From the human T2T-CHM13v2.0 reference genome, Homo sapiens, in NCBI RefSeq assembly GCF_009914755.1, contig NC_060943.1: 64,000 bases of DNA, one strand, 5' to 3'. Positions 13,915 through 61,045 of the stretch are shown here, piece after piece. Positions within the stretch are counted from its first letter, which is position 1. Each line of letters begins with the position of its first letter. The notes under the pieces are model-generated. The model was not told where the DNA came from and did not search any database. It worked only from the letters and a program-made list of their open reading frames with translations. The position numbers and the translations under genes were made by a program.

Positions 13915-14256
<342 letters not shown>

Positions 14257-14439
14257 TTACACCAAACTCCAAGCAAACAAACATATGTATAATAGGACTC
14301 TGGGGAAAGGAGAGGAAGGAGAAAAATTTTTGTAGCATTAATGGCTGGAAACTTTTCAAACTTGGTGTAAACGTTAATTTACACAAACTCCAAGAAGTAT
14401 AAATACAAAGAGAGCCATATCTAGATTCATCGTAGTAAA

Positions 14440-14549
14440 TGTCAGGCCTTTGAGCTTAAGCTAAGCTATCATTATCTTTTGTGACTTGCACATACACATC
14501 TAGATGGCCGGTTCCTGCCTTAACTGATGACATTCCACCACAAAAGAAG
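14440..14549 (+). mobile_element. 5' LTR7 remnant (first 110 bp of U3 only)
   Basis: Aligns to the start of the 3' LTR, then jumps straight into leader sequence AACCCCTCAACCCC; no R/U5/PBS. Confidence 0.9.
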
Positions 14550-15834
14550 AACCCCTCAACCCCTTCTCCTTCACCGTTAGTGGCAAGTCCCGCTTTTCTG
14601 GGGGAGGGGCAAGTACCCCAACCCCTTCTCTCCGTGTCTCTACCCCTTCTCTGCTTTTCTGAGTGGCAAGAACCCCTCAACCCCTTCTCCTTCACCCTTA
14701 GTAGCAAGTCCCGCTTTTCTGGAGGAGGGACAGGAACCCCGACCTCTTATCTCTGCACCCCGATCCCTTATTTCCATGCCCAGACCTCTTATCTCTGTGC
14801 CCCATCCCTTATTTCTGCACCCCAACCTCTTATCTCTGTGCCCCAACCCCTTCTCTGCTTTTCTGGAGGGCAAGAACCCCCCCACCCCTTCTCCATGTCT
14901 CTACTCTCTTTTCTCTGGGCTTGCCTCCTTCACTATGGGCAAGCTTCCACCTTCCATTCCTCCTTCTCCCTTAGCCTGTGTTCTTAAGATCTTAAAACCT
15001 CTTCAACTCTCACCTGATGTAAAATCTAAGCATCTAATTTTCTTCTGAAACGCCGCTTGACCCCCATACAAACTTGACAGTAGTTCCAAATAGCCAGAAA
15101 ACAGCACTTTCAATTTTTCCATCCTACAAGATCTAAATAATTCTTATCATAAAATAGGCAAATGGTGTGAGGTGCCTGACATCCAGGCATTCTTTTACAC
15201 ATCAGGCTCTCCCTAGCCTCTGTTCCCAATGCAACTCGTCCCAAATCTTCCTTCTTTCCCTCCCACCTGTCCCCTCAGTCCCAACCCCAAGTGTCACTGA
15301 GTCTTTCTAATCTTCCTTTTCTACAGACCTATCTGACCTCTCCCCTCCTTGCTAGGCCGAGCTAGGTCCCAATTCTTCCTCAGCCTCCGCTCCTCCACCC
15401 TATAATCCTTTTATCGCCTCCCCTCCTCACACCCGGTCCCCCTTACAGTTTCGTTCCGTGACTAGCCCTTCCCCACCTGCCCAGCAATTTACTCTTAAAA
15501 AGGTGGCTGGAGCTAAAGGCATAGTCAAGGTTAATGCTCCTTTTCCTTTATCCCAAATCAGATAGTGTTTAGGCTCTTTTTCATCAAATATAAAAATCCA
15601 GCCCAGTTCATGGCTCGTTCGGCAGCAACCCTGAGACACTTTACAGCCCTAGACCCTAAAATGTCAAAAGGCCGTCTTATTCTCAATATACATTTTATTA
15701 CCCAATCTGCTCCCGACATTAAATAAAACTCCAAAAATTAAATTCCGGCCCTCAAACCCCACAACAGGACTTAATTAACCTCGCCTTCAAGGTGTACAAT
15801 AATAGAGGCAGCCAAGTAGCAACATATTTCTGAG

Positions 15835-32800: not shown

Positions 32801-33699
32801 CTACTTGATGTGTGATCTTAAACCAATTCACTCAACCTTCGTGGGCACCAAATTCCTCATTAGGAAACTATGCATAGAGGATCTCCTTCAGAAGGTTGTT
32901 TCGGGGATTGAAGGAATGGTTAGCGCAGCGGCTACACATAGTAGGAACTCAGGGAATGCTGCTGGGACTCACGTTCCTAAGCCATGAAAACGGTCCAGTG
33001 GGTGGAGGGTGCTACCATTTATGCATGGAGGGGAAGAAACTACCCGTGCATATGTGCAGAGGTCCACAGGGGATTTTCTGAAAGATACACATGAAATGAA
33101 GACCAGGGAAACAGCAGTATTCTCCCAGTAAAGAGGATAGATGTATGTGTACATATATGTGCATATACATATATACACGTATATTTATAAATGACAAACA
33201 CACAAAAATAACAGTATAAATCTCCATTTGTTATATATTTAAATTTTTTGTAGCGATCGGGCTGTTGCTATATTATCAAGGCTGGTCTCATACACCTGGC
33301 CTCAAGCGATGCTCCGACATCAGCCTTCCAAAGTGCTGGGATTACAGGCCTGAGGCATCGCGCCCAGCTCCAAATCTCCATTTTCGGTGAACCATTTGAG
33401 AAAAAATCGCAAACATGCTGCATCTCCAAATACCTAACTATGTTTTCCACAAACAGGGACAGGTTCCCACGTGCACACTGTAAGGCACGGTGAAAATCGG
33501 GACATTAACACGGCTGAATCGCTACCATCTAATCCGAAGGCCCAACCACATTCACCACTTGTGCCAATAATATGTTCATTTCACTGTATGTTTTGAAATG
33601 TGTACCACATGCATATGTTATCTTTACGAAAAAAAAAATAGTATGTTGAAACCACTCGTCACAGCCAAATGAAATAAGAGCTAACTCATTCAAGCAGGA

Positions 33700-35230
33700 A
33701 CCCCGGAGGACTAAAAGAATCCGGCCTCTCCCAGGCCTCCTCACCTGAGCAGGGCTCCCTCCTGACTACCGCCCACCCACTCCAGGGCAGGACGCGGGAA
33801 GAGACTGCCCAGCCCGAGGGTCGCAGGGGCAGAAAACCCCAGGTCCTGAACGCGCCTGGGCCCCGCGGCGAACCTGGCGTCCCCACCCGACACCAGAATC
33901 AGATTCAGGCCAGGCCAGGAACCACCCCAGCTTCCTGCATCCGCCTTGGTCCAGGCAGCAAAGACGGCGGCGGCCGCCAGGGGGACGGAAGCTCAAGGGC
34001 GGGGATGCAGGCCCAAGCCTGGGCGCGCCCACCAAGGCGTGGATCCGGACGAAGGTTCCGGAACAGCCGGTCCCGAGCACCCACGTGCAGCTTCCGATCT
34101 CAGCCCTGGCGTGGCTTCTGTGTCCCCGGCTAAGGCCCGCGGTCGCTGCAGGGTGCCTCGCCGAGGGTGCGGGCTCGGGGCTCACAGTGCTCCCAGCCTC
34201 TCCCACCCCAACCCCGCCATTAAGGGGAGCCCCAGCGACGCCCTGAACCCTGAAAGTCACACTGGGGCCGGGGCTGCACTTGGCGTCCGCTTCCCCTCCC
34301 GTCACAGTGACCAGGGCTAGGACCGGGGTCCGGGCCGTCGGGGAGAGCGGAGGGCGCGTGGGAATGGGGCTCGCTGCGCCACGGAAACCCCGCGCCGCCC
34401 TTCGAGTCCTCCCCGCTGCTCCGCAGAGCCGGGGCCGCTGCCATCGCGTCTGCCCCGAGGGTGCGCAGGCGGGTACCTGTCCCGACTCGGGGAACAGCGG
34501 GAGCCCGGAGACGCCCGTCGGGCTTCCCAGCCCCACCTGGGACGTCTCTAGGGGCGGGAGGCCAGGAGAGCAGAGGGTGGGAGAGATGAGCTGCAGGGGG
34601 ATACGGGACCCAGGGACCCGGGATATTATAACACGCTTTCCACCCGTAGGATTGGGGCCCACAAATGACCAGAAAGGTGGGACTCATTCGCCCCCTTTGC
34701 AGATGGACCCATGTTGGCGCCCCTTAGATCTGCAGTGGGGGCACCAGGACCTGCGGTGAGCGCCTCTGCGCCCCAAACGCCAGCAGGTCCGCCCGACCGC
34801 ATTCCCACCTGGCTTGCTTTGCACAAATGCTGCGTCAGGGCACGCCCCACACCCACTCCTTCCCAGATCGCGACCCTCACGCCTTCGCAGACAGAAAGTG
34901 TCCTAAGCACAGGCAGGCTCAGAGCCCGCCTCCGCCTCGGATTCGCTGTGTGGCCCGGAGCCAGTATCTTGGCCTCTCTGGGTCTCAGTTTGCTCATCTC
35001 AGTGAATGGGACACAGACACAGTCGCGCTGCGGGCTAACGCTTTATTTGCCAGCCAAGGCCCCGGGCCCGCCTGGGCTTCTGCTCAGAAGATCCTCACGG
35101 AGTCCAGCTGCACGTCCCCGCCCACCTCCACCAGGCGCACGCGCGCCAGCGGCAGGCGGTGGCGGAAGTGGTGGTACTGGGCGTCCCCAACCACGGCCTG
35201 CAGGGGAGGGTCGGTGGTGAGGATTCCGGA
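33700..35230. promoter_or_regulatory. CpG-island-like region over the last exon and 3' flank of LGALS7
   Basis: High GC content and dense CpG over about 1.5 kb; mirrored at about 55600-57130. Confidence 0.7.
35042..35047 (-). terminator. LGALS7: LGALS7 polyadenylation signal AATAAA
   Basis: TTTATT on + strand, 36 nt after the stop codon. Confidence 0.85.
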
Positions 35231-37550
35231 GGCCCGTGCTGGGTGGCCCTGGGGAAATCACTCATCCCCTCTGGGCCTCAGTTTCCTCACTGGGAAAATG
35301 GGGCTATTGTTCATTCTAACTCTTGCGTGAGGATCAAACGAGTTGACTGTGTGGCACAGTAAAAAGCGGCTTTTTTAGTGCTGGTAATGGATATTCTCAT
35401 TTCAGCGACCATTACCCGCTATTAAAGCGCAGAGGAGGGAGGTGAATTCGCGTAAGCTGTGGGTGGTGGAGGATCTGCCGCCACTCCCACCCGCCAATCC
35501 TTGCTAGGACGAGTTCCTGGGCGCTGTTTCCAACCCATCCCTCCCCATGCCTCAAACCCCGGACCTCAGGAAGGAATGAACTGGGAGTAGGGTCTGGGAT
35601 GGCGAGTCTGGGCCACGCCTTCCCGCTAGGACGCCCACCCCTTGGACACTTGGCTGGTGCTCGCCTCGTCCTGACCCTGCTGTCTCTCTGTCCCTCGGAC
35701 CCAAGTGGGAGTTGTTTAGGCGAGAGAGAGGGTCGAAGGACACCCTTCTCCGCCTTGGCCACGACTTCCCTACGCTCCTCACCCCACCCCGAACCTCCCT
35801 GCCTTCCACCAATAGCCTGGCTTTGCCCAACCCTCTGCTCCAGGGACCTAAGTCTTGGCGTCCACGCCCCTGTCGCTGAGACGCACCTTGAAGCCGTCGT
35901 CTGACGCGATGATGAGCACCTCGAAGGGCTGCCCGCGCTGGAAAGGAACGCCCGGCCCGCGCTCCTCGCGGCCCCAGGAGCCTTGCTCCTTGCTGTTGAA
36001 GACCACCTCCGACGTGTCCAGCCGGGGGTTGAAATGCAGGGCGGCATCGGAGCCCTGCTCCTCCCCGCACAGCAGGTTTACATGGAACCTGGAAGAGGGG
36101 GATGGTGGCCGTCAGGGCTCAGAAACCACCCAGACCAAGAAATGTTGAGGGTGAGGAATACCGATGTCTACAATTTACTTTGAATGAATAAGTAAATGAA
36201 ATGTTGGCTGGGTGCAGTGGCTCACCCTGTAATCCCAGCACTCTGGGAGGTGGAGAAGGGAGGATCGCTTGGGCCCGGAAGTTAAAGACCAGCCTGGGCA
36301 ACATAGCGAGACCCCACCTTACAAAAAAACGAAAGAACAAACAAAACATAAACCGCCCAGACCAAAGTGAAGGTCTTATGGGCTGGCACTCCCCATTCCC
36401 AGAGTACCCCCAAATTAACAGGGACCTGAAGACAGGCACACACCGCAGAAGGAGAGGTGGGCGACTAATGACCAGGGAGCTTAGATTCCCAAGGCAGCCA
36501 AAATATCATGAGGCCCTTGGCAGAAACCTACCCAGACCAAACTCACTACACTTAGGGCAGGGTGCCCTCATTTCCAAAGAGCCTGGGAGCTGCCCAGGAG
36601 GTCTGGGTGATAGCCAGGGTGCTCCTGATGCTCAGGGAACCCTCAGCTTCTACAGGACAAAGAATAATACCAGGAACCCCAGTATTTCCAGGGTACCTCA
36701 GAATCCAGAAGGCCCGAAGTTCCTTAGCCAGGAAGTCAAAGGATGGCTTGGCAAGGACTCCCAGGGTCCAGGGTGTCTCCAGGACTTGGAGTATTTCCAG
36801 AGTTCCCTGGGACTCAGACATGGAAGTCACAGGACTATATCTAGGAACCCTGAGATTACCCAGGGACCTCAAATGCTTAGGGAAACTTAGGGACCCCAGC
36901 CACAAAGGCACGGGGGCAAATACGAATACATCAGATTTGAGGTCAGAAATGGCCTCGGACTCCTAGCCTGGTGGATACAGGTGGCCTCGGGCCCCTACTT
37001 CTGGACTGCAAAAATTGGGAGTCAGCTGATCCTGAGACCTGTACCCTTTACCCCTAGGGCCTGGGGCCTCACCTGCTGGCATTGGGAGGAACCAAGCCGC
37101 GAATTCTCAGCACCGTGCCAGGGCGGATGCCCTCGGGCAGCGAGGACTTGTGGGGGACGTTCTGCAAGAGTGGGGTGCAGGGGCCACTGTGAGCCGGTGA
37201 GACCGAAGGAGGGAGGCAGAAGGTGGGTCACCCCTCAGAGGAGCCGACCAGGGCTGAGACTGGCAGAAATCAGTGGAAGAGGAAAGGTTGGCGGAGAGGC
37301 AGGAAAGAGACCAGAAACAGACAGGGAAACAGATGGGGAGAGCAACAAAGACAAACAGAAAGATCCTCAAAGAGGGCCCCAGAGGAAGCCACAAAGAGGT
37401 AGAGGGGACAGTCGGGATGGGGGTTACCCGGAGGCCACAGCCCAGGCCAGTCCGTGGCACACTCACTGCCCACTTGCTCCTTTGAAAGAGGAGCCCCCAG
37501 CCCCCTCCCTGCTTGGCCCCGCCCCGGGCCCCTGGAGCACTCACGGACAT
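35084..37550 (-). CDS. LGALS7: Galectin-7 (136 aa), 4 coding exons
   Basis: Exons 37545-37550, 37073-37161, 35887-36088, 35084-35197 total 411 nt; [17 protein letters not shown]...HFNPRL...[16 protein letters not shown]...DSVRIF*; galectin CRD residues intact. The LGALS7 vs LGALS7B name is assigned from known gene order (minus-strand copy next to CAPN12). Confidence 0.96.
36139..36349 (+). mobile_element. Alu left monomer plus 67-bp 5' extension, TSD-flanked, in LGALS7 intron 2
   Basis: TSD AAACC(A/G)CCCAGACCAA at 36123-36138 and 36350-36365. Confidence 0.8.
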
Positions 37551-37598
37551 GGCTGGGACCGGGTTGGGCAGCCGTGGTGGTGGGGCCTGCTGGGGACC

Positions 37599-37700
37599 TT
37601 AAATAAAAGCAGGGCGGGGCTGGCCCTGATGACTCACCCCACCCCTTCCCACCCACCACCCACACCTGGCACGGACCCTGGCCCTGGGGCAAGCCTGGCG
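37599..37700 (-). promoter_or_regulatory. LGALS7: LGALS7 proximal promoter (TATA-like, GC box, AP-1, p53-family half-site)
   Basis: TATTTAA 37605-37599; GGGCGGGG about 37612-37619; TGACTCA 37630-37636; GGGCAAGCCT 37687-37696 fits RRRCWWGYYY. Confidence 0.7.
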
Positions 37701-38564
37701 AAGCGGGAGTGGCGCCTCTTCTTGGGGGCCCTGATCCCCCCATCACCCAGAGCCCGGGTGCACTGCCCCTCTCCTAGGAGCTGATAATAAGAGCCACCGC
37801 CCCTCCACCCCTGTCTTCCCACTGCCTGGCACACAGGAGAGTCTCTCATGCTCATTTTATCCACAGACATGTTGGGTCCTGAGAAGCCAAGCCCAGCGGG
37901 AACTCTAGACCCTTCTCTCCAGCTGAGAACCTCCTGCCTAGACTGGAAATGTCTGCGCTGAAATCCCTGCTTCTAAGTCTCCAGTGGAACAGCAGCCACA
38001 ACAACGACGATAGTGCCAGACAGGGGGACTTCACAGGGTCGGAGGGCGGCCTGGTTGGCTCAGTGCTGCACCCCTGGGTCCTGGAGTGTGCCGGGTTCAT
38101 GGGAAGTCCTCAGTCAGGAGGGGTGAAAGGAGGGGATCCACTAGGACTACGCTTGTCATTTCCCAGGCCCTTGGGCTGCCCAGGATATGCAGGAAATCAC
38201 TGATTGGGACCCCACCATTCCAACAGAGAGAAGCATGGGTCACCCCCATTGTACAGAGAAGGAGGCTGAGGCTGGGATGGGAAGTGATTTTCCACAAGCC
38301 GGGCAGGACCCATTGCCCCAACCTCTGCCTTTCCTCACCTCTGGGCGTGCCTCTCCTGTGGGTTCTGTCTCTGGGGCTGGCTGTCTGGCTCTGTTTGTCT
38401 CTGTCTATAACTGTCTACCGCGTATTCCTGTCCCACTTCTCTCCTTCAAGTCTCTCTTGTTCCTCCTTCCAGGACTGTTACCATCTTCCCACCAATTTTG
38501 CAGGTCAGGATGAGGTGGGTTTTAGGGTGGTGGGTGGCCTAGCATTCCATCACCACCTAGATCA

Positions 38565-39118
<554 letters not shown>

Positions 39119-39121
39119 CTA

Positions 39122-39752
<631 letters not shown>

Positions 39753-40082
39753 TCATGGGCACGGACAGAGAGGACAGCAGGGTGTCCGGTGATCACACCA
39801 CCAGCGCAGCTCAGTTAGTTCCCGAGAATGTTCCCTTGAATGGTGAACTCCATCATTCTAACATTATTGACCATTCTAAAGAACACACTCCTCACATTAC
39901 TGACGCCTCATGCTGTGTACCGTGTTTCCCAGGAACTCAACTTTTTAGTGATCGCTTCACTGTGGCTGGATGTAACTTCACATGCAGCCAACATGCTGCA
40001 AGTCCCAACGTGCCTTTGCTGACTGGCCAAAGCTTTCCATTCACTCTATTATTAGCCTGAAGTCCTGACTCCTTTCTGGTAA

Positions 40083-40484
<402 letters not shown>

Positions 40485-41030
40485 TAATTTTTTTTTTTTT
40501 TTTTTGAGACAGGGTCTGGCTCTCTCTGTGATCATGGCTTACTGCAGCCTTGGCCTCCTGGGCTTGGGAATCCTCCCGCCTCTGGAGTAGCTTGGACTAC
40601 AGTTGCACGCCACCATGCCCAGCTTTTTTTTTTTTTTTTTTTTTTTTCCTAGAGAGGAGGTCTCACCATGTTGCCCAGGCTGGTCTCAAACTCCTGGGCT
40701 CAAGCGATCCTCCCACCTTGGTCTCCTAAAATGTTGTGATTACAGGCCTGGCCACGGTAATATTTGTGTGTCTTTTTTCGGTTTTAAATAACTAATGTGT
40801 TTATTTCCCAATTGTTATTTCATTGAGGTATTTTTCCCATTAAATAAAAGGTTCAGATTTTGTTGTTGTTGTTGTTGTTTTGAGACAGGGTCTTGTTCTG
40901 TCGCCCAGGCTGGAGTGCAGTGGTATGATCTCAACTTACTGCAACCTCTGCCTCCCAGATTCAAGTGATCCTCCCACCTCATCCTCCTGAGTGGCTGGGA
41001 CTACAGGAGTGTGCCACCACACCTGCCTAA

Positions 41031-41171
<141 letters not shown>

Positions 41172-41480
41172 TAATGGAATAGTTCAATGAGTTTTGACAC
41201 ATATAGTCACCTGTGTAACCACCTCCCCAATCAAGTTTCCTGGTGCCCCTAGAAACAGTCACTGCTCCTTCTGCCACATGAAGCCACTGTCACTCCTGAG
41301 CAGTTAGTAGCCACAAAGTTTCCTTTGATCCATTGTGGTGGCATGTGCCTGTAGTCCCAGCTACTCGGGAGGCTAGGGCAGGAGGATCACCTGAGCCCTG
41401 GAGGTGGAGGCTACAGTGACCCAAGATCACACCACTGCACTCCAGCCTGGGTAACAAGGCGGGCGGATCACCTGAGGTCA

Positions 41481-41732
<252 letters not shown>

Positions 41733-41839
41733 TCAGGAGATCGAGACCATCCTGGCTAATACGGTGAAACCCCGTCTCTACTAAAAATACAAAAAATTAG
41801 CCAGGCGTGGTGGCGGGCACCTGTAGTCCCAGCTACTCA

Positions 41840-41986
<147 letters not shown>

Positions 41987-42983
41987 TCATTTGCCGTGAA
42001 AATGAGAAAGTGGGTTGGGACAGACTGATTTTTCTGATTTTAGGCCTCTTTCAGGATATAACTTAGGTGAAAAGTAACTAATCGCACACTAAGTGTTTGT
42101 AGGGATTTAAAACCCCAGGTTCTGTCAGTGCCATTTTGTTAGTGATATTTTGAGTTATTGTTTTTTGTTTTATTTTTGATTTTTTTTTAGTGATTGCTTC
42201 ACTGTGGCTGGATGTAACTTCACATGTAGCCAACATACTGCAAGTCCCAATGTGCCTTTGCTGATTGGCCAAGGGTTTGCACATTAACTCTGTTATCAGC
42301 CCGAAGTCCTGACTCATTTCTGATAACAGATCTACGTCCTTGATGGGTTCTTTTTTTTTTTTCTTTTGAGATGGAGTCTCACTCTGTTGCCCAGGCTGGA
42401 GTGCAGTGGCTCAATCTCAGCTCTGCCTCCTGGGTTCAAGCGATTCTCTTGCCTTGGCCTACTTAGTAGCTGGGATTACAAGCATGCACCACCACTCTTG
42501 GCTGATTTTTGTATTTTTAGTAGAGATGGGGTTTCACCATGTTGGCCAGGCTGGTCTCGAACTCCTGACCTCAAGTGATCCACCCACCTCAGCTTTCAAA
42601 AGTGCTGGGATTACAGATGTGAACTACTGTGCCTAGCCAAGGGTCTGGCTATGTTGCCCAGGCTAGTCTGGAACCTGGGCTTAAGTGATCCTCCAACTTC
42701 TGGCCTCCCAAAGTACTGGGATTACAGGTGTGAGCCACCATGCCCTGTGGTTTTGGTTATTTTTTAAACACAGTGAAGATACTTCAGGGACTCCTTTGGT
42801 TTTATATATTAACATTCCAGTGATGAAAATGATACAGGTAAAAATCTTTTTAGTGAATTCTAACTGTTCCCACAGTTAAAGACATTTACCCACTATGTAA
42901 CTAATTATATCTTTCCAAGTAATTTGGTAACCACCACTGAAGATTGGCTTACTCAGCTTCTAACTCACTCCCCAGCGGGCCCA

Positions 42984-48729: not shown

Positions 48730-49015
<286 letters not shown>

Positions 49016-49578
49016 TGAGATTTCTAAGTGTCATTTTCATCATCAGAATGTTGATTTACAAAAAGCAGCCCCAGAATTACCTTCACTGTGTATAAAAAAT
49101 AACCAAAATGTGACCAACAAATGACATTCATGGAGCCTGAATTTTAAATCTCTACAACCACCTAGTGTGCAATTAGCTACTTTTCATCTAAATTATTTCC
49201 TAAAAGAGGCATAAAGTAAGAAAAATCAGTCTACTCCCTCTTCTTTATTTTGAGACAAAAGAACCTCGGTGGCTAGTCAATGCTCAGCAGTGGCCAGGCC
49301 CAGTGGCTCATGCCTGTAATCCCAGCACTTTGGGAGGCTAAGGCAGGCAGATCGCTTGACTCCAGGAGTTCAACACCAGCCTAGGCAACATCGTAAAACC
49401 CTCTCTCTACAAAAAATACACAATTAGCCAGGCATGGTGGCGTGTGTCTGTAGCCCCAGCTACTCGGGAGGCTGAGGTGGTGAGCCCAGGAGGTTTAAGC
49501 TTGGAAGATTGAGGCTGCAGTGAGCGGAGACTGCACCACTGCACTCCAGCCTGGGTGACAGAGTGAGACCCCCATCTC

Positions 49579-49609
<31 letters not shown>

Positions 49610-49811
49610 AATGGTCAGGAGTGACACTGGTCAGTGGCTTCCTGGAACTAGAAGAGAGGCCACTATTTCCTGGACACCAGGAAACTTAATTGAGGAGGTG
49701 GTTAGATAGGTCTCCACAGTTCTCAAAATCAGTGAACTATACCTTTAATATCTGCATCTTTTATTTTATGGGAAGGATACCTTGATAGAAAGACTATTGA
49801 GAAATATATAC

Positions 49812-49847
<36 letters not shown>
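49812..49847. repeat. (ATT)n microsatellite
   Basis: Directly visible, in an Alu tail. Confidence 0.85.
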
Positions 49848-49852
<5 letters not shown>

Positions 49853-49860
49853 CTTTTTGA

Positions 49861-50347
<487 letters not shown>

Positions 50348-50675
50348 TCACGAAAATATTATTTCAGGCCAGGCGCAGTGGCTCACACCTGTAATCCCAA
50401 CACTTTGGGAGGCCGAGGAGGGCAGATCACGAGGTCAGGAGTTCGAGACCAGCCTGACCAACATGGCGAAACCCTGTCTCTACTAAAAATACAAAAATTA
50501 GGCCAGGCGCGGTGGCTTATGCCTGTAATCCCAGCACTTTGGGAGGCCGAGGCGGGCGGATCATGAGGTCAGGAGACCGAGACCATCCTGGCTAATACAG
50601 TGAAACCCCGTCTCTACCAAAAATGCAAAAAATTAGCTGGGCGTGGTGGCGGGAGCCTGTAGTCCCAGCTACTCA

Positions 50676-50813
<138 letters not shown>

Positions 50814-53132
50814 TTAGCCAGGCATGTTGGTGGGTGCCTGTAATCCCAGCTACTCAGGAGGCTGAGGCCAAAGAATCACTTCAACCCGGGAGGTGGAGGT
50901 TGCAGCGAGCCGAGATCGCACCACTGCACTCCAGCCTGGGTGACAGGGTGAGCCTCTGTCTCAAAAAAAAAACAAAAGAAAAAAAAAACAAAAGAAAATA
51001 TTGTTTCACAACTGATGAGAAACATAACCAACACTAATGAATAAGAGCCCATCGAGGATGCATATCTCAGTTACAGGAAAGGAGCCAGCCTTTTAGACTG
51101 GTAACAGATTGACTGCAACCATTTGGCCAATCACTTAAGGCAAGTTGGGACTTGCACGTTGGTTGGGTGTGAAGTCATATCCAGCCACAGTGAAGAAATA
51201 GAAATAAATAAAAAGATGTTCTTGGGAAACAATAGCAAGGTACAGAATGATGTATCAAGTAATGTAAGGAGTGTCTTTTCTTTTTGTGGACTGAGGTCTC
51301 ACTGTGTTGCCCAGGCTGGAGAGCTGTGGTGTGATCATAGCTCCCTGCAGCCTCTGATCTCCTGGGCTCAAGCAATTCTCCTGCCTCAGCCTCCCAAGTA
51401 GCTGGAATTACAGGCAGATGTGCGCCAACCCACTGGGCTATTTTATTTTATTTTTATTTTTTGTAGTGATGAGGTCTTGCTGTGTTGCCCAGGCGAGAGT
51501 GTCTTCTTTAGAATGGTCAATAATGTTAGAACAATGGAGTCCACCATTCAGGGGAACATTCTCGGGAACTAACTGAGCTGGGCTGGTGGTATGATCACCG
51601 GACACCCTGCTATCCTCTCTGTCCGTGCCCATGACATGTCCTTGGCACAAAGACCCCTCTGGAGCTGAGGGGCTGGCCTCTTCCTTGACTGAGAGGTGGC
51701 CCCTGTCTAAGCCTCAGTTTTGTCCTCTGCAGAATGGGGGTGCTTGCAGCCCCTACTGAAATGCAGCTGCTAGCCTCCCTCTCTGAGCTCATGTTCCCAA
51801 GAACTGGTCCCTGAGCTTGGTGCCTTGGAGTGTGTGGGGAGGGGGCGAGAGGCTGGGGGCCTGGGACGCAGAGGGTGGAGGATGGTTCTGGGTCTGCTGT
51901 CTCCACCCAAACTTTCCACTGCCAGCCTGCCTCTGCCCAGGCCTCTCAGCAGCCTGCTGGGTGGGGCAGGAGCTGGAGTGGCGAGTGGAAAAGGTCCAGG
52001 AGGGCTGCTGGGCTGCTAGGAGTGGTTTCTGCTCAGCTCCCACACCATCCCTGCCTTTCAGAAGCATCTTTCAGCCCTACCCGCCCCTCCACCAAGCCAA
52101 TTCCCCAACCCTGAGTTCTCTTGCAGAGTCTTAGGCCCAAGGGGGCTGTTTCGGGCCTGGCGGGAGGGTCCCCACCTTGCTCTGCTTTTGATCTAGGTGG
52201 TGATGGAATGCCAGGCCACCCACCACCCCAAAACCCACCTCATCCTGACCTACAAACTTGGTGGCATGATGGTAGCAGTCCTGGAAGGAGGAAGAAGAGA
52301 GACTTGAAGGAGAGAAGTGGGACAGGAATATGTGGTAGACAGAGTTAGGGGCAGAGACGGACAGAGTGAGACAGCCAGCCCCAGAGACAGAACCCACAGG
52401 AGAGGTGCGAGCAGAGGTGAGGAGAGCCAGAGGTCAGGGCAACGGGTCCTGCACGCTCCTGCCTTTGGCAAATCGCTTCCCATCCCAGCTTCAGCCTCCT
52501 CCTCTGTACAATGGGGGTGACCCATACTCCTCCCTGTTGGAATGATGGGGTCCCAATCAGTGATTTCCTGCATCTCCTGGGCAGCCGAGGGGCCTTGGAA
52601 ATGACAGGCATAGTCCTAGTGGATCCCCTCCTTTCACCCCTCCTGACTGAGGACTTCCATGAACTGGGCACACTCCAGGACCCAGGGGTGCAGCGCTGAG
52701 GGGATCAGGCAGGCCCCCTGTGAACCCATGAAGCCACCCTGTCAGTCACTAGTGCTCCTATTGTGGCCGCTGTTCCATTACAGAGGCAGAAGCTTAGATT
52801 TCAGCACGGATCAGTCCAGGCAGGAGGTTCTCAGCTGGAGAGAAGGGTCTGGAGTTCCCACCCAGATTGGCCTCCCAGGACCTAATATGTCTGTGTATAA
52901 AATAAGAGAAATTACTAACAAATAAATACATGAAATGAGATAGAGGCTCTCCGTGTGCCAGGCAGCGGGAAGACAGGGGTGGAGGGGCAGTGGCACAAGG
53001 AGCCTTCTCTGCTGTGAGTTTATTACTATTAAACATTCCCTCTTATTATCAGCTCCTAGGAGAGGGGCAGTGCACCCGGGCCCTGGGTGATGGGGGGATC
53101 AGGGCCCCCAAGAAGAGGTGCCACTCCCGCTT

Positions 53133-53234
53133 CGCCGGGCTTGCCCCAGGGCCAGGGTCCGTGCCAGGTGTGGGTGGTGGGTGGGAAGGGGTGGGGTGAG
53201 TCATCAGGGCCAGCCCCGCCCTGCTTTTATTTAA
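53133..53234 (+). promoter_or_regulatory. LGALS7B: LGALS7B proximal promoter
   Basis: GGGCTTGCCC 53137-53146; TGAGTCA 53197-53203; TATTTAA 53228-53234. Confidence 0.7.
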
Positions 53235-53282
53235 GGTCCCCAGCAGGCCCCACCACCACGGCTGCCCAACCCGGTCCCAGCC

Positions 53283-55749
53283 ATGTCCGTGAGTGCTCCA
53301 GGGGCCCGGGGCGGGGCCAAGCAGGGAGGGGGCTGGGGGCTCCTCTTTCAAAGGAGCAAGTGGGCAGTGAGTGTGCCACGGACTGGCCTGGGCTGTGGCC
53401 TCCGGGTAACCCCCATCCCGACTGTCCCCTCTACCTCTTTGTGGCTTCCTCTGGGGCCCTCTTTGAGGATCTTTCTGTTTGTCTTTGTTGCTCTCCCCAT
53501 CTGTTTCCCTGTCTGTTTCTGGTCTCTTTCCTGCCTCTCCGCCAACCTTTCCTCTTCCACTGATTTCTGCCAGTCTCAGCCCTGGTCGGCTCCTCTGAGG
53601 GGTGACCCACCTTCTGCCTCCCTCCTTCGGTCTCACCGGCTCACAGTGGCCCCTGCACCCCACTCTTGCAGAACGTCCCCCACAAGTCCTCGCTGCCCGA
53701 GGGCATCCGCCCTGGCACGGTGCTGAGAATTCGCGGCTTGGTTCCTCCCAATGCCAGCAGGTGAGGCCCCAGGCCCTAGGGGTAAAGGGTACAGGTCTCA
53801 GGATCAGCTGACTCCCAATTTTTGCAGTCCAGAAGTAGGGGCCCGAGGCCACCTGTATCCACCAGGCTAGGAGTCCGAGGCCATTTCTGACCTCAAATCT
53901 GATGTATTCGTATTTGCCCCCGTGCCTTTGTGGCTGGGGTCCCTAAGTTTCCCTAAGCATTTGAGGTCCCTGGGTAATCTCAGGGTTCCTAGATATAGTC
54001 CTATGACTTCCATGTCTGAGTCCCAGGGAACTCTGGAAATACTCCAAGTCCTGGAGACACCCTGGACCCTGGGAGTCCTTGCCAAGCCATCCTTTGACTT
54101 CCTGGCTAAGGAACTTCGGGCCTTCTGGATTCTGAGGTACCCTGGAAATACTGGGGTTCCTGGTATTATTCTTTGTCCTGTAGAAGCTGAGGGTTCCCTG
54201 AGCATCAGGAGCACCCTGGCTATCACCCAGACCTCCTGGGCAGCTCCCAGGCTCTTTGGAAATGAGGGCACCCTGCCCTAAGTGTAGTGAGTTTGGTCTG
54301 GGTAGGTTTCTGCCAAGGGCCTCATGATATTTTGGCTGCCTTGGGAATCTAAGCTCCCTGGTCATTAGTCGCCCACCTCTCCTTCTGCGGTGTGTGCCTG
54401 TCTTCAGGTCCCTGTTAATTTGGGGGTACTCTGGGAATGGGGAGTGCCAGCCCATAAGACCTTCACTTTGGTCTGGGCGGTTTATGTTTTGTTTGTTCTT
54501 TCGTTTTTTTGTAAGGTGGGGTCTCGCTATGTTGCCCAGGCTGGTCTTTAACTTCCGGGCCCAAGCGATCCTCCCTTCTCCACCTCCCAGAGTGCTGGGA
54601 TTACAGGGTGAGCCACTGCACCCAGCCAACATTTCATTTACTTATTCATTCAAAGTAAATTGTAGACATCGGTATTCCTCACCCTCAACATTTCTTGGTC
54701 TGGGTGGTTTCTGAGCCCTGACGGCCACCATCCCCCTCTTCCAGGTTCCATGTAAACCTGCTGTGCGGGGAGGAGCAGGGCTCCGATGCCGCCCTGCATT
54801 TCAACCCCCGGCTGGACACGTCGGAGGTGGTCTTCAACAGCAAGGAGCAAGGCTCCTGGGGCCGCGAGGAGCGCGGGCCGGGCGTTCCTTTCCAGCGCGG
54901 GCAGCCCTTCGAGGTGCTCATCATCGCGTCAGACGACGGCTTCAAGGTGCGTCTCAGCGACAGGGGCGTGGACGCCAAGACTTAGGTCCCTGGAGCAGAG
55001 GGTTGGGCAAAGCCAGGCTATTGGTGGAAGGCAGGGAGGTTCGGGGTGGGGTGAGGAGCGTAGGGAAGTCGTGGCCAAGGCGGAGAAGGGTGTCCTTCGA
55101 CCCTCTCTCTCGCCTAAACAACTCCCACTTGGGTCCGAGGGACAGAGAGACAGCAGGGTCAGGACGAGGCGAGCACCAGCCAAGTGTCCAAGGGGTGGGC
55201 GTCCTAGCGGGAAGGCGTGGCCCAGACTCGCCATCCCAGACCCTACTCCCAGTTCATTCCTTCCTGAGGTCCGGGGTGTGAGGCATGGGGAGGGATGGGT
55301 TGGAAACAGCGCCCAGGAACTCGTCCTAGCAAGGATTGGCGGGTGGGAGTGGCGGCAGATCCTCCACCACCCACAGCTTACGCGAATTCACCTCCCTCCT
55401 CTGCGCTTTAATAGCGGGTAATGGTCGCTGAAATGAGAATATCCATTACCAGCACTAAAAAAGCCGCTTTTTACTGTGCCACACAGTCAACTCGTTTGAT
55501 CCTCACGCAAGAGTTAGAATGAACAATAGCCCCATTTTCCCAGTGAGGAAACTGAGGCCCAGAGGGGATGAGTGATTTCCCCAGGGCCACCCAGCACGGG
55601 CCTCCGGAATCCTCACCACCGACCCTCCCCTGCAGGCCGTGGTTGGGGACGCCCAGTACCACCACTTCCGCCACCGCCTGCCGCTGGCGCGCGTGCGCCT
55701 GGTGGAGGTGGGCGGGGACGTGCAGCTGGACTCCGTGAGGATCTTCTGA
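53283..55749 (+). CDS. LGALS7B: Galectin-7B (136 aa, protein identical to LGALS7)
   Basis: Exons 53283-53288, 53672-53760, 54745-54946, 55636-55749; GT-AG introns; stop TGA 55747-55749. Confidence 0.96.
54484..54694 (-). mobile_element. Alu left monomer plus 67-bp 5' extension, TSD-flanked, in LGALS7B intron 2
   Basis: TSD TTGGTCTGGG(C/T)GGTTT at 54468-54483 and 54695-54710. Confidence 0.8.
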
Positions 55750-55785
55750 GCAGAAGCCCAGGCGGGCCCGGGGCCTTGGCTGGCA

Positions 55786-55791
55786 AATAAA
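55786..55791 (+). terminator. LGALS7B: LGALS7B polyadenylation signal AATAAA
   Basis: AATAAA 36 nt after the stop codon. Confidence 0.85.
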
Positions 55792-57446
55792 GCGTTAGCC
55801 CGCAGCGCGACTGTGTCTGTGTCCCATTCACTGAGATGAGCAAACTGAGACCCAGAGAGGCCAAGATACTGGCTCCGGGCCACACAGCGAATCCGAGGCG
55901 GAGGCGGGCTCTGAGCCTGCCTGTGCTTAGGACACTTTCTGTCTGCGAAGGCGTGAGGGTCGCGATCTGGGAAGGAGTGGGTGTGGGGCGTGCCCTGACG
56001 CAGCATTTGTGCAAAGCAAGCCAGGTGGGAATGCGGTCGGGCGGACCTGCTGGCGTTTGGGGCGCAGAGGCGCTCACCGCAGGTCCTGGTGCCCCCACTG
56101 CAGATCTAAGGGGCGCCAACATGGGTCCATCTGCAAAGGGGGCGAATGAGTCCCACCTTTCTGGTCATTTGTGGGCCCCAATCCTACGGGTGGAAAGCGT
56201 GTTATAATATCCCGGGTCCCTGGGTCCCGTATCCCCCTGCAGCTCATCTCTCCCACCCTCTTCTCTCCTGGCCTCCCGCCCCTAGAGACGTCCCAGGTGG
56301 GGCTGGGAAGCCCGACGGGCGTCTCCGGGCTCCCGCTGTTCCCCGAGTCGGGACAGGTACCCGCCTGCGCATCCTCGGGGCAGACGCGATGGCAGCGGCC
56401 CCGGCTCTGCGGAACAGCTGGGAGGACTCGAAGGACGGCGTGGGTTTTCCGTGGCGCAGCGAGCCCCATTCCCACGCGCCCTCCGCTCTCCCCGACGGCC
56501 CGGACCCCGGTCCTAGCCCTGGTCACTGTGACGGGAGGGGAAGCGGACGCCAAGTGCAGCCCCGGCCCCAGTGTGACTTTCAGGGTTCAGGGCGTCGCTG
56601 GGGCTCCCCTTAATGGCGGGGTTGGGGTGGGAGAGGCTGGGAGCACTGTGCGCCTCGAGCCCCCACCCTCGGCGAGGCACCCTGCAGCGGTCGCGGGTCT
56701 CTCAACCGGGGACCGAGGAGCCAGGCCAGGGCTGCGATCGGAAGCTGCACGTGGGTGTTCAGGGCCGGCTGTTCCGGAACCTTAGTCCAGAGCCACATCT
56801 TGGTGGGCGCGCCAGGGCTTGGGTCTCGATCCCCGCCCTTGAACCTCCGACCCCCTGGCGTCCGCCTTCCGCATTGCTGCCTGGACCAAGGCGGATGCAG
56901 GAAGCTGGGGTGGTTCCTGGCCTGGCCTGAATCTGATTCTGGAGTCAGGTGGGGACGCCAGGTTCGCTGCAGGGCCCAGGCGCATTCAGGACCCGGGGTT
57001 TTAGGCCCCTGCGACCTTCGGTCTGGGCGGTCCCTTCCCGTGTCCGGCCCTGGAGTGGGTGGGCGGTGGCCAGGAGCGAGCCCAGCTCAGGTGAGGAGGC
57101 CTGTGAGAGGCCGGTTTCTCCCAGTCCTCCGGGGTTCCTGCTTGAATGAGTTAGCTCTTATTTCATTTGGCTGTGTCGAGTGGTTTTAAAATATCAGTTT
57201 TTTCATAAAGATAATATATGCATCTGGTATACATTTCAAAACATACAGTGAAATGAACACACATTATTGGCACAAGTGGTGAATGTGGTTGGGTCTTCGG
57301 ATTAGACAGTAGCGATCCAGCCGTGTTAATGTCCTGAATTTCACCGTTGACTGACAGTGTACATGTGGGAACTTGTCCCTGTTTGTGGAAAATAGAGTTA
57401 GGTATTTGGTGGTGCAGCATGTTTGCGACTTATTCTCAAATGGTTC

Positions 57447-60091: not shown

Positions 60092-60609
60092 TGACCTATC
60101 TGTCTTTTTTATTATAGCCATCCTAATAGGTTGGCTTCACCACTTGGTGAAGAGATATGTCATGTGGTTTTGATTTGCATTTCCCTAATGACATGGGTTG
60201 CCGTTTATATATCTTCTTTGCAGAAATGTTTATCGAAATTTTCTGCCCATTTTAAATTGGATTTTTAAAAGGTGTTATATAATCTTATCCATAAATATGT
60301 GTATAATTCTAAATGATATTTATTTTTTAATTTTTATTTTTGAGATGGGGTCTCACTCTGCTGCCCAGGCTGGTCTCAAACTCCCAGGTTCAAACAGTCT
60401 TCCCACCTTAGCCTCCCAAGTAGCTAGGATTACAGGCATCTGCCACCATGCCTGGCAGGCTCTCTTTTTAAACAAAACCTCATTACCATTCTAACTCCTA
60501 AAAAATTTACAGTTCATATCATTGTATGATACAATGTTTGCAAAGTTTGTATGCAAAGGTTTCCCCCAACATTTTATTATGAATTTTTTCAGACATGCAG
60601 AAAAGTTAA

Positions 60610-61045
<436 letters not shown>

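What the first reader, a model, noticed from the sequence alone, without database searches (positions are those of the whole stretch)
54468..54710. Intronic Alu-monomer retrocopy with 5' flank whose apparent source is only 8.5 kb away
Seen: LGALS7B intron 2 holds a 211-bp insert (minus strand: 67-bp flank, Alu left monomer, A-tail) between 16-bp direct repeats TTGGTCTGGGYGGTTT. The 67-bp flank (54628-54694) aligns to 63167-63234 with 9 mismatches and 1 gap. It joins the Alu at exactly the same base as the AluJ-like element at 62888-63166, in the same orientation. The insert stops where that Alu's middle A-rich linker lies (about 63036-63048). Inference: a minus-strand transcript starting upstream of that Alu was primed at the mid-A linker and reinserted locally. 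Read-through from LGALS4, known to lie on the minus strand just right of this window, is a plausible source transcript. This would be a 5'-transduction-like, cis-local retrotransposition or RNA-templated repair event. Caveats: the flank is old L1-derived sequence, and the nick site (AG|AAAC) is a weak L1 endonuclease match.
Basis: partly seen in the sequence, partly recalled or inferred. Interest (0 to 1): 0.78.

Follow-up and report, generated by a model that had tools for sequence, protein, structure and literature searches.

The report
Local retrocopy of an L1-Alu junction
A 211-base insert in an intron of both galectin-7 genes looks like an old reverse-transcribed copy of a unique L1/Alu junction that lies only 8.5 to 27 kb away; this is a known kind of event, unusual only in how close the copy sits to its source.

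Summary
16-bp direct repeats (15 of 16 matching) at 54468-54483 and 54695-54710 bracket a 211-bp insert. On the minus strand it reads: 67 nt of an old L1-type 3' end, an AluJ-type left monomer, then an A-rich tail.

It aligns to 63043-63234 over 189 columns, with 28 mismatches and 4 one-base gaps. The flank/Alu joint is collinear.

At 63 kb the Alu is an ordinary insertion into an L1 3' fragment. The rest of that fragment lies at about 60.57-60.73 kb, beyond a nest of later insertions. So the 63-kb locus is the parent.

The best reading is an L1-type, target-primed insertion of a piece of a read-through transcript not made from the Alu's own promoter. It was primed or ended in the Alu's A-rich linker, roughly 35-55 My ago.

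Untested: LGALS4 read-through as the template, and any mechanism that favours local reinsertion. The closeness could be chance. This is a new member of a known kind (class 1 templated insertion, internal priming). Interest is modest.

The parts
54468..54483 (-). Target-site duplication, copy next to the A-rich tail (the 3' copy in the element's sense)
   Evidence: Matches 54695-54710 at 15 of 16 bases. On the + strand its 3' end...GGTTT, is the presumed primer end.
54484..54513 (-). A-rich tail: 9 nt homologous to the source Alu's linker (54505-54513) plus 21 further A-rich nt (54484-54504)
   Evidence: The alignment ends at 54505. The extra 21 nt show no significant similarity to the source's right monomer: 1746 of 2000 shuffles reach the score.
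54514..54627 (-). Alu left monomer of the old (J-type) kind
   Evidence: Aligns to the left monomer of the Alu at 63052-63166. Insert and source share states that differ from the AluS-like majority consensus of 61 other Alu hits in the window. The subfamily name is recalled, not tested against a library.
54628..54694 (-). 67-nt piece of an old L1-type 3' end, carried with the Alu
   Evidence: 9 mismatches and 1 gap against 63167-63234. It is 84.8% identical to the source and at most 74.2% to 19 other family members.
54695..54710 (-). Target-site duplication, copy at the element's 5' end; lies 34 nt upstream of LGALS7B exon 3
   Evidence: exon coordinates come from the hub's gene table.
36123..36365 (+). 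The same insert with both repeats in LGALS7 intron 2 (mirror copy)
   Evidence: 36093-36393 is 301 of 301 identical to 54440-54740 in reverse orientation.
63043..63234 (-). Parent stretch: L1-type flank (63167-63234), Alu left monomer, and the start of the A-rich linker
   Evidence: It is the only other place in the genome with this junction.
62888..63166 (-). Full dimeric Alu of the parent locus. Its linker now holds AATAAA at 63039-63044
   Evidence: for the sequence; for the hexamer positions.
63167..63330 (-). Upstream part of the 5'-truncated L1-type 3' fragment into which the Alu inserted
   Evidence: 19 other genomic loci match it at 70-81%. The family homology reaches about 63330, where a plus-strand Alu begins.
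60572..60735 (-). Downstream remainder of the same L1-type 3' fragment, displaced by the nest of insertions
   Evidence: By my reading, the sequence continues the family members exactly where the 63-kb flank stops (alignment).

Best explanation
The insert is a reverse-transcribed copy of part of an RNA made from the minus strand at 63.0-63.2 kb.

1. That RNA began upstream of the Alu. It therefore did not come from the Alu's own Pol III promoter; most likely it was a Pol II read-through or intergenic transcript.
2. It ran through the last 67 or more nt of an old L1 3' fragment into the Alu nested in that fragment.
3. Reverse transcription started in or at the Alu's A-rich middle linker, from the 3' end ...GGTTT of a nicked or broken + strand in intron 2 of a galectin-7 gene.
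4. Synthesis stopped or was truncated 67 nt upstream of the Alu. Staggered second-strand cleavage then produced a 16-bp target-site duplication.
5. The enzyme was most likely L1 ORF2p acting in trans.
6. The event dates to very roughly 35-55 My ago.
7. The insert now sits in both LGALS7 and LGALS7B. Either the genes duplicated afterwards or gene conversion carried it across.

Shown: the anatomy, the parent-copy relation, and the uniqueness of the junction. Inferred: the RNA intermediate, the enzyme, the promoter and the date.
For: **Retro-insertion hallmarks**
- 16-bp repeats (15 of 16) abut both ends of the homology exactly.
- The copy ends in the Alu's A-rich linker and carries 21 more A-rich bases that do not resemble the sequence following the source's linker.
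- The A-rich end abuts the repeat copy whose + strand ends in TTT, as target priming requires.

**The 63-kb locus is the parent**
- The Alu there is an ordinary insertion into an L1-type 3' fragment.
- 19 other family members run on through the joint.
- The missing downstream part of that fragment is found at 60572-60735.
- So the joint was created at 63 kb and then copied.

**The junction is unique**
- Three junction and flank patterns of 34-35 positions, each with up to 3 mismatches allowed, find 3 of 3 hits at LGALS7, LGALS7B and 63 kb. The reversed-pattern controls find 0.
- Flank identity is 84.8% to the source and at most 74.2% to the others, with 8 shared rare states.

**Print supports the kind of event**
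- Internal priming of Alu with target-site duplications, possibly at staggered breaks without an L1 endonuclease site (PMC5402677, passages).
- L1 ORF2p inserting intronic or intergenic transcript fragments, called class 1 templated insertions (PMC5110952, part 1 of the text and passages).
- The Alu middle A-rich region as a poly(A)-site hotspot (PMC2553571, passages).
Against: - The nick site, 5'-GTTT/CT-3', is a poor match to the L1 endonuclease preference TTTT/AA. It has three Ts but no purines after the nick.
- The copy's homology ends within the linker's AATAAA (63039-63044), not 10-30 nt downstream of a signal. A normally polyadenylated RNA is therefore not shown. Yet the tail is about 10 nt longer than simple priming on today's linker would give.
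- L1-mediated insertion is described in print as landing in seemingly random places, from donors spread over the chromosomes (PMC5110952). On my arithmetic, landing within 27 kb of the source has a chance of about 2 in 100,000 per event. A DNA-level local copying mechanism would explain the closeness more naturally.
- No RNA-specific mark was found. There is no splice junction to see, and no A-to-I editing bias: 6 changes from source A to insert G against 6 from source G to insert A.
- No orthologous empty site could be examined.
Confidence: 0.7

Rival explanations
1. DNA-level local copying. A broken or stalled strand in the galectin-7 intron copied about 190 bp from the nearby 63-kb DNA, by replicative template switching or synthesis-dependent patch repair. 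It then returned 16 bp upstream of where it left, making the flanking duplication.
For: - Source and copy lie 8.5 or 26.8 kb apart on one chromosome. Template-switch mechanisms are expected to work locally (my knowledge, not from a call), whereas L1 insertion is not known to.
- The nick site is a weak L1 endonuclease match.
- No RNA-specific mark was found.
Against: - I see no microhomology at the 5' joint between target and source.
- This model has no reason for three things to coincide: the copy ending in an A-rich tract, 21 extra A-rich bases, and that end abutting a T-run primer.
- A clean 16-bp duplication is typical of target-primed reverse transcription.
Confidence: 0.15
2. The 63-kb locus is not the parent. 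Both it and the intron insert derive from a third locus that is lost or was not detected, so the closeness is incidental.
For: - The searches have limits. The DNA searches missed known relatives: one search did not find the 63-kb locus and one search did not find the insert.
- By my estimate, the patterns with up to 3 mismatches would miss perhaps one in five siblings at this age.
Against: - At 63 kb the L1 fragment continues on both sides of the Alu nest. The Alu therefore inserted there in place; the junction was not imported.
- The three patterns found nothing else in a complete telomere-to-telomere genome.
Confidence: 0.05
3. Chance resemblance. A free left Alu monomer inserted independently beside an unrelated copy of the same old L1 family inside the intron.
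For: - The A-rich patch of this L1 family does attract Alus. 1 of 19 other family members (L036) has a same-orientation Alu about 7-10 nt from the equivalent site.
Against: - The 16-bp repeats enclose flank and monomer together.
- The joint is collinear to the base.
- The flank shares 8 rare states with the 63-kb copy.
- The L036 Alu is not at the same base.
Confidence: 0.01

Closest known systems
Class 1 templated sequence insertions (Onozawa and Aplan; PMC5110952, part 1 of the text and passages read)
   Same: A short fragment of non-mobile, intergenic or intronic transcript inserted with a target-site duplication and an A-rich 3' end. It is attributed to L1 ORF2p acting in trans.
   Different: - Those come from distant donors spread over the chromosomes. 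They carry a poly(A) tract 10-20 nt (abstract: 10-30) downstream of AATAAA and sit at TTTT/A sites.
- Here the donor is 8.5-27 kb away, homology ends within the hexamer, and the site is GTTT/CT.
Internal-priming Alu insertions (described in PMC5402677, passages read, which cites Srikanta et al. 2009; that paper was not seen)
   Same: Reverse transcription starts on an internal A-rich tract rather than the 3' tail. Target-site duplications are present. An L1 endonuclease site is not always present, and staggered breaks are proposed as entry points.
   Different: - Published cases are Alu RNAs proper.
- This template carried 67 nt of upstream non-Alu sequence, so it was not an Alu-promoter transcript.
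- The tail here is longer than the present-day linker.
5' transduction by SVA and L1 (recalled, not checked in a call)
   Same: Upstream flanking sequence is co-mobilised because transcription began at an upstream promoter.
   Different: - There the mobile element itself is the retrotransposed unit and stays recognisable as such.
- Here only half an Alu is present, and nothing shows that the Alu drove the event.
Free left Alu monomers (FLAM; recalled)
   Same: A lone left monomer with an A-rich end.
   Different: FLAMs are independent elements with their own target-site duplications. Here the duplication encloses an L1-derived flank shared with a dimeric Alu locus.
Alu middle-linker polyadenylation sites (PMC2553571, passages read)
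   Same: The sense-strand linker of the parent Alu today reads AATAAA and is followed by TG-containing sequence. That is the configuration the paper describes as a poly(A)-site hotspot.
   Different: The copy does not extend 10-30 nt past the hexamer, so use of this site is not shown.

Membership tests
L1 ORF2p-mediated (target-primed) retro-insertion | Target-site duplication of about 7-20 bp flanking the insert | tested here: met
   16 bp, 15 of 16 matching, exactly at the ends of the homology.
L1 ORF2p-mediated (target-primed) retro-insertion | A-rich tail at the 3' end, next to the primer side of the target | tested here: met
   30-nt A-rich end, of which 21 nt do not resemble what follows the source's linker. 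It abuts ...GGTTT-3' on the + strand.
L1 ORF2p-mediated (target-primed) retro-insertion | Nick at a TTTT/AA-like site | tested here: not met
   The site reads GTTT/CT. There are three Ts for priming but no purines after the nick.
L1 ORF2p-mediated (target-primed) retro-insertion | Identifiable parent locus elsewhere, and an RNA intermediate | tested here: inconclusive
   The parent is identified. The RNA intermediate is inferred only. There is no intron to be lost and no editing bias.
Class 1 templated sequence insertion | Poly(A) added 10-20 nt (abstract: 10-30) downstream of a cryptic AATAAA in the donor | tested here: not met
   The donor's minus-strand hexamers lie at 63039-63044 and 63172-63177. 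Homology ends at 63043, which is inside the first and about 128 nt past the second.
Class 1 templated sequence insertion | Donor in a distant region | tested here: not met
   The donor lies 8.5 kb (LGALS7B) or 26.8 kb (LGALS7) away.
Internal-priming Alu insertion | 3' end of the copy falls in an internal A-rich tract of the template | tested here: met
   The alignment ends in the middle linker.
Internal-priming Alu insertion | Template is an Alu RNA starting at Alu base 1 | tested here: not met
   67 nt of upstream L1-type sequence are included.
Free left Alu monomer (FLAM) | Monomer alone between its own target-site duplications | tested here: not met
   The duplication encloses the flank plus the monomer.
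Segmental (DNA) duplication | Homology without target-site duplication or added tail, usually longer | tested here: not met
   Homology is 190 bp. It is bounded by the 16-bp repeats and by an extra A-rich tail.

The most novel reading that the evidence does not exclude
The closeness is mechanistic. A read-through RNA still tethered to chromatin at 63 kb, for example downstream of LGALS4, was captured at its internal A-rich Alu linker. The capturing end was a nick or staggered break a few kb away in three-dimensional contact. The RNA was then reverse-transcribed on the spot by ORF2p or a repair polymerase. This would be an example of cis-local, nascent-RNA-templated insertion in the primate germline. 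It would explain together the weak endonuclease site, the internal priming and the short distance.
Probability: 0.15. Interest if true: 0.65.

Novelty: new member of a known kind. Interest (0 to 1): 0.3.

Why it matters
On its own this is an old, probably neutral intronic insert. It is nonetheless a clean case: the parent locus of a non-autonomous retro-insertion can be named with confidence, and it lies on the same chromosome within 8.5-27 kb.

If a genome-wide census showed more such near-parent copies than random landing predicts, that would point to local reuse of nascent or chromatin-bound RNA by reverse transcriptase. That question is open in L1 biology and in RNA-templated repair. A single case cannot decide it.

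The finding also shows that gene conversion keeps LGALS7 and LGALS7B almost identical, intron insert included.

Tried and rejected
**Genome DNA searches**
- The junction-spanning query was swamped by Alu 5' ends: 843 candidates, 40 scored. The best hits other than the two galectin-7 copies covered the Alu part and at most about 50 nt of flank at 81-85% identity. I did not follow these up, because the exact pattern scans found no shared junction.
- The search with the 67-nt flank alone returned only the two galectin-7 copies. It missed the 63-kb locus, so it is too insensitive to count as evidence of uniqueness.
- The search with the source flank found 19 family members and missed the insert.

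**RNA-specific marks**
- A-to-I editing signature: 6 changes from source A to insert G against 6 from source G to insert A, so none.
- Extension of the copy into the source's right monomer: not supported, 1746 of 2000 shuffles reach the score.

**Other origins considered**
- Orphan 3' transduction from an active L1 just upstream: unlikely. Family homology upstream of the source stops at about 63330-63700, and only about 2.5 kb separate the source from LGALS4's 3' end (and the hub table).
- L1 identity of the flank family: a Pfam scan of read-through translations upstream of 3 of the 19 family loci gave one hit, the L1 ORF1 RBD-like domain at E 9.4e-9, in 1 of 3 loci. This is weak support. The names 'L1M' and 'AluJ' are recalled; no repeat library was available.

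**Not available or found nothing**
- Paper searches on retrocopies near their parents and on LGALS7B duplication turned up nothing on this insert. From I read only listings. From I read passages of two reviews.

Full report
**What is there**

On the + strand of the window, TTGGTCTGGGCGGTTT (54468-54483) recurs with one mismatch at 54695-54710. Between the two copies lie 211 bp. Read on the minus strand, they consist of:
- 67 nt of non-Alu sequence (54694 down to 54628);
- an Alu left monomer (54627 down to 54514);
- an A-rich end of 30 nt (54513 down to 54484).

A local alignment puts 54505-54694 against 63043-63234: 189 aligned columns, 28 mismatches and four one-base gaps. There is no indel at the flank/Alu joint. 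Homology ends within the source Alu's middle A-rich linker. The last 21 nt of the insert's tail are A-rich but bear no significant likeness to the start of the source's right monomer: 1746 of 2000 shuffles reach the observed score.

The stretch 54440-54740 is 301 of 301 identical to 36393-36093. The same insert, with both repeats, therefore sits in intron 2 of LGALS7 as well as LGALS7B.

The two genes lie in an inverted duplication.
- The arms 33389-37793 and 57446-53040 are 97.7% identical overall, but very unevenly so.
- There are 6 differences in 53040-56289 and 96 in 56290-57446. An unbroken identical run covers 54004-55277.
- Further in, collinear mirrored matches continue at 91%, 71%, 73%, 81% and 78% identity, out to about 42.8 kb and 49.0 kb.

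This pattern suggests an old duplication whose gene bodies are kept alike by gene conversion. A review notes two galectin-7 genes in human, cow and dog (PMC5751359, passage). The insert therefore either predates the duplication or entered one copy and was carried to the other by conversion. The original distance to the source was 8.5 kb or about 26.8 kb.

**Is the 63-kb locus the parent?**

The flank belongs to an old dispersed repeat. A genome search with 63167-63330 found 19 other loci at 70-81% identity. In the aligned copies the family runs on through the point where the Alu sits.

At 63 kb, reading the minus strand, the order of elements is:
1. the upstream repeat part (about 63330 to 63167);
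2. the dimeric Alu (63166-62888) with its A tail;
3. an SVA-like element, recognised by its hexamer run and VNTR-type repeats (a recalled resemblance), bracketed by a 16-bp duplication (about 62870 to 61192);
4. the annotated U6 pseudogene (61154-61048);
5. a full Alu directly abutting the U6 pseudogene;
6. the missing downstream part of the old repeat (about 60735 to 60572), which ends in an AATAAA-containing terminus.

So the Alu entered this repeat copy in place, and the joint was made here.

The insert's flank is 84.8% identical to this copy. It is at most 74.2% identical to the 19 others. It shares 8 rare states with this copy, against 0-5 for any other member.

Three patterns of 34-35 positions were scanned over the whole 3.1-Gb assembly, each allowing up to 3 mismatches. 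They cover the joint from both sides and the flank. Each found exactly three places: LGALS7, LGALS7B and the 63-kb locus. The reversed-pattern controls found none.

The limits of this are as follows:
- The patterns overlap one another.
- By my estimate, a sibling that has drifted about 8% would pass each pattern with a probability of roughly two in three.
- The BLAST-type searches of this tool missed known relatives.

One other family member (L036) carries a same-orientation Alu about 7-10 nt away from the equivalent site. The A-rich patch is thus a repeated target, but the exact joint is not shared.

**Names**

I call the flank 'L1M-type' and the Alus 'AluJ-type' from recall. No repeat library was at hand.
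- Partial support for the flank: one of three family loci examined has an L1 ORF1 RBD-like domain upstream, in the same orientation (E 9.4e-9).
- Partial support for the Alus: insert and source share states that differ from the AluS-like majority consensus of 61 other Alu hits in the window.

**Mechanism**

Three features together are the signature of target-primed reverse transcription:
- a 16-bp duplication that hugs the homology;
- an A-rich 3' end;
- that end lying next to a + strand 3' terminus ...GGTTT.

Because 67 nt upstream of Alu base 1 are included, the template cannot be a transcript from the Alu's internal Pol III promoter (established knowledge). It was a read-through or intergenic transcript of the minus strand.

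How the 3' end arose is open.
- The linker of the parent today reads AATAAA (63039-63044). It is followed by TG-containing sequence, the configuration described as a poly(A)-site hotspot in sense Alus (PMC2553571, passages). But the copy does not run 10-30 nt past the hexamer.
- Internal priming on the linker fits better. It is described in print, including at staggered breaks without an L1 endonuclease site (PMC5402677, passages).
- The source reads AAGCC right after the linker, where the target repeat begins AAACC. The primer end could therefore have annealed there. This is inference only.
- The tail is about 10 nt longer than today's linker would give. That needs either later expansion or some added A.

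The nick site, GTTT/CT, is a poor L1 endonuclease site.

The closest published category is the class 1 templated sequence insertion, attributed to ORF2p acting on intronic or intergenic RNA (PMC5110952). Two of its listed features are not met here: poly(A) downstream of a signal, and a distant donor.

**Date**

The Jukes-Cantor distance between copy and parent is 0.165. Halved, and divided by recalled neutral rates of 1.5-2.2 per 10^9 per site per year, this gives roughly 38-55 My. That is a rough figure. I give the wider 35-55 My elsewhere, because the flank alone gives about 34-50 My on the same arithmetic.

**The closeness**

With random landing, a copy falls within 27 kb of its parent about 2 times in 100,000 (my arithmetic). 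The genome holds perhaps ten to twenty thousand insertions with a nameable parent (a recalled order of magnitude), so chance predicts a few tenths of such a case genome-wide. One case therefore neither proves nor excludes a local mechanism.

A DNA-level template switch would explain the closeness. It would not explain the A-rich end, the extra tail or the T-run primer, and I see no microhomology at the 5' joint.

LGALS4 read-through is possible. Between LGALS4's 3' end and the source, the minus strand has one AATAAA (65487) and three ATTAAA. It is untested, and LGALS4 is not known to me as a germline gene.

**Verdict**

The retro-insertion reading is the best explanation, at about 0.7. The cis-local mechanism and the LGALS4 template remain speculation. 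It is a new member of a known kind and of modest interest.

Noticed in passing
33389-42850 and 49000-57446: The LGALS7/LGALS7B inverted duplication is larger and older than the 4.4-kb high-identity arms suggest. The gene bodies are 99.8% identical (6 differences in 3250 bp). The outer flank is about 8% diverged. Collinear inner matches fall to 71-81% identity. This pattern points to ongoing gene conversion over the genes.
   Followed up: partly
60572-63330, minus strand: One A-rich patch of an old L1-type 3' end has taken a nest of insertions: a dimeric old Alu, an SVA-like element with a 16-bp target duplication (about 61192-62870), the U6 pseudogene RNU6-140P, and a full-length Alu.
   Followed up: partly
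61045-61154, minus strand: The U6 pseudogene ends in its T-run and is followed with no spacer by base 1 of a full Alu. It could be a U6-Alu chimeric retrocopy made by template switching, or two separate insertions. The flanking repeats are too A-rich to decide.
   Followed up: no
54484-54744: The insert lies antisense to LGALS7B and ends 34 nt upstream of exon 3, just ahead of the likely branch-point region. Its T-rich stretch followed by AG (about 54505-54515) and a GTGAG a little downstream (about 54608) look like cryptic splice sites. This was not tested.
   Followed up: no
L036 (G000:C17:30112678-30115776): Another copy of the same L1-type family has a same-orientation Alu about 7-10 nt from the equivalent site. 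This suggests the patch is a recurrent insertion target.
   Followed up: no
14148-14894: Low-copy tandem or near-tandem repeats about 120 bp apart at 85-98% identity showed up in the self-comparison. They were not examined.
   Followed up: no
34976 and 55549 (mirror pair): A second isolated 16-mer direct repeat 293 bp apart lies in both galectin-7 arms, near exon 4. It may bracket another small insert. It was not examined.
   Followed up: no
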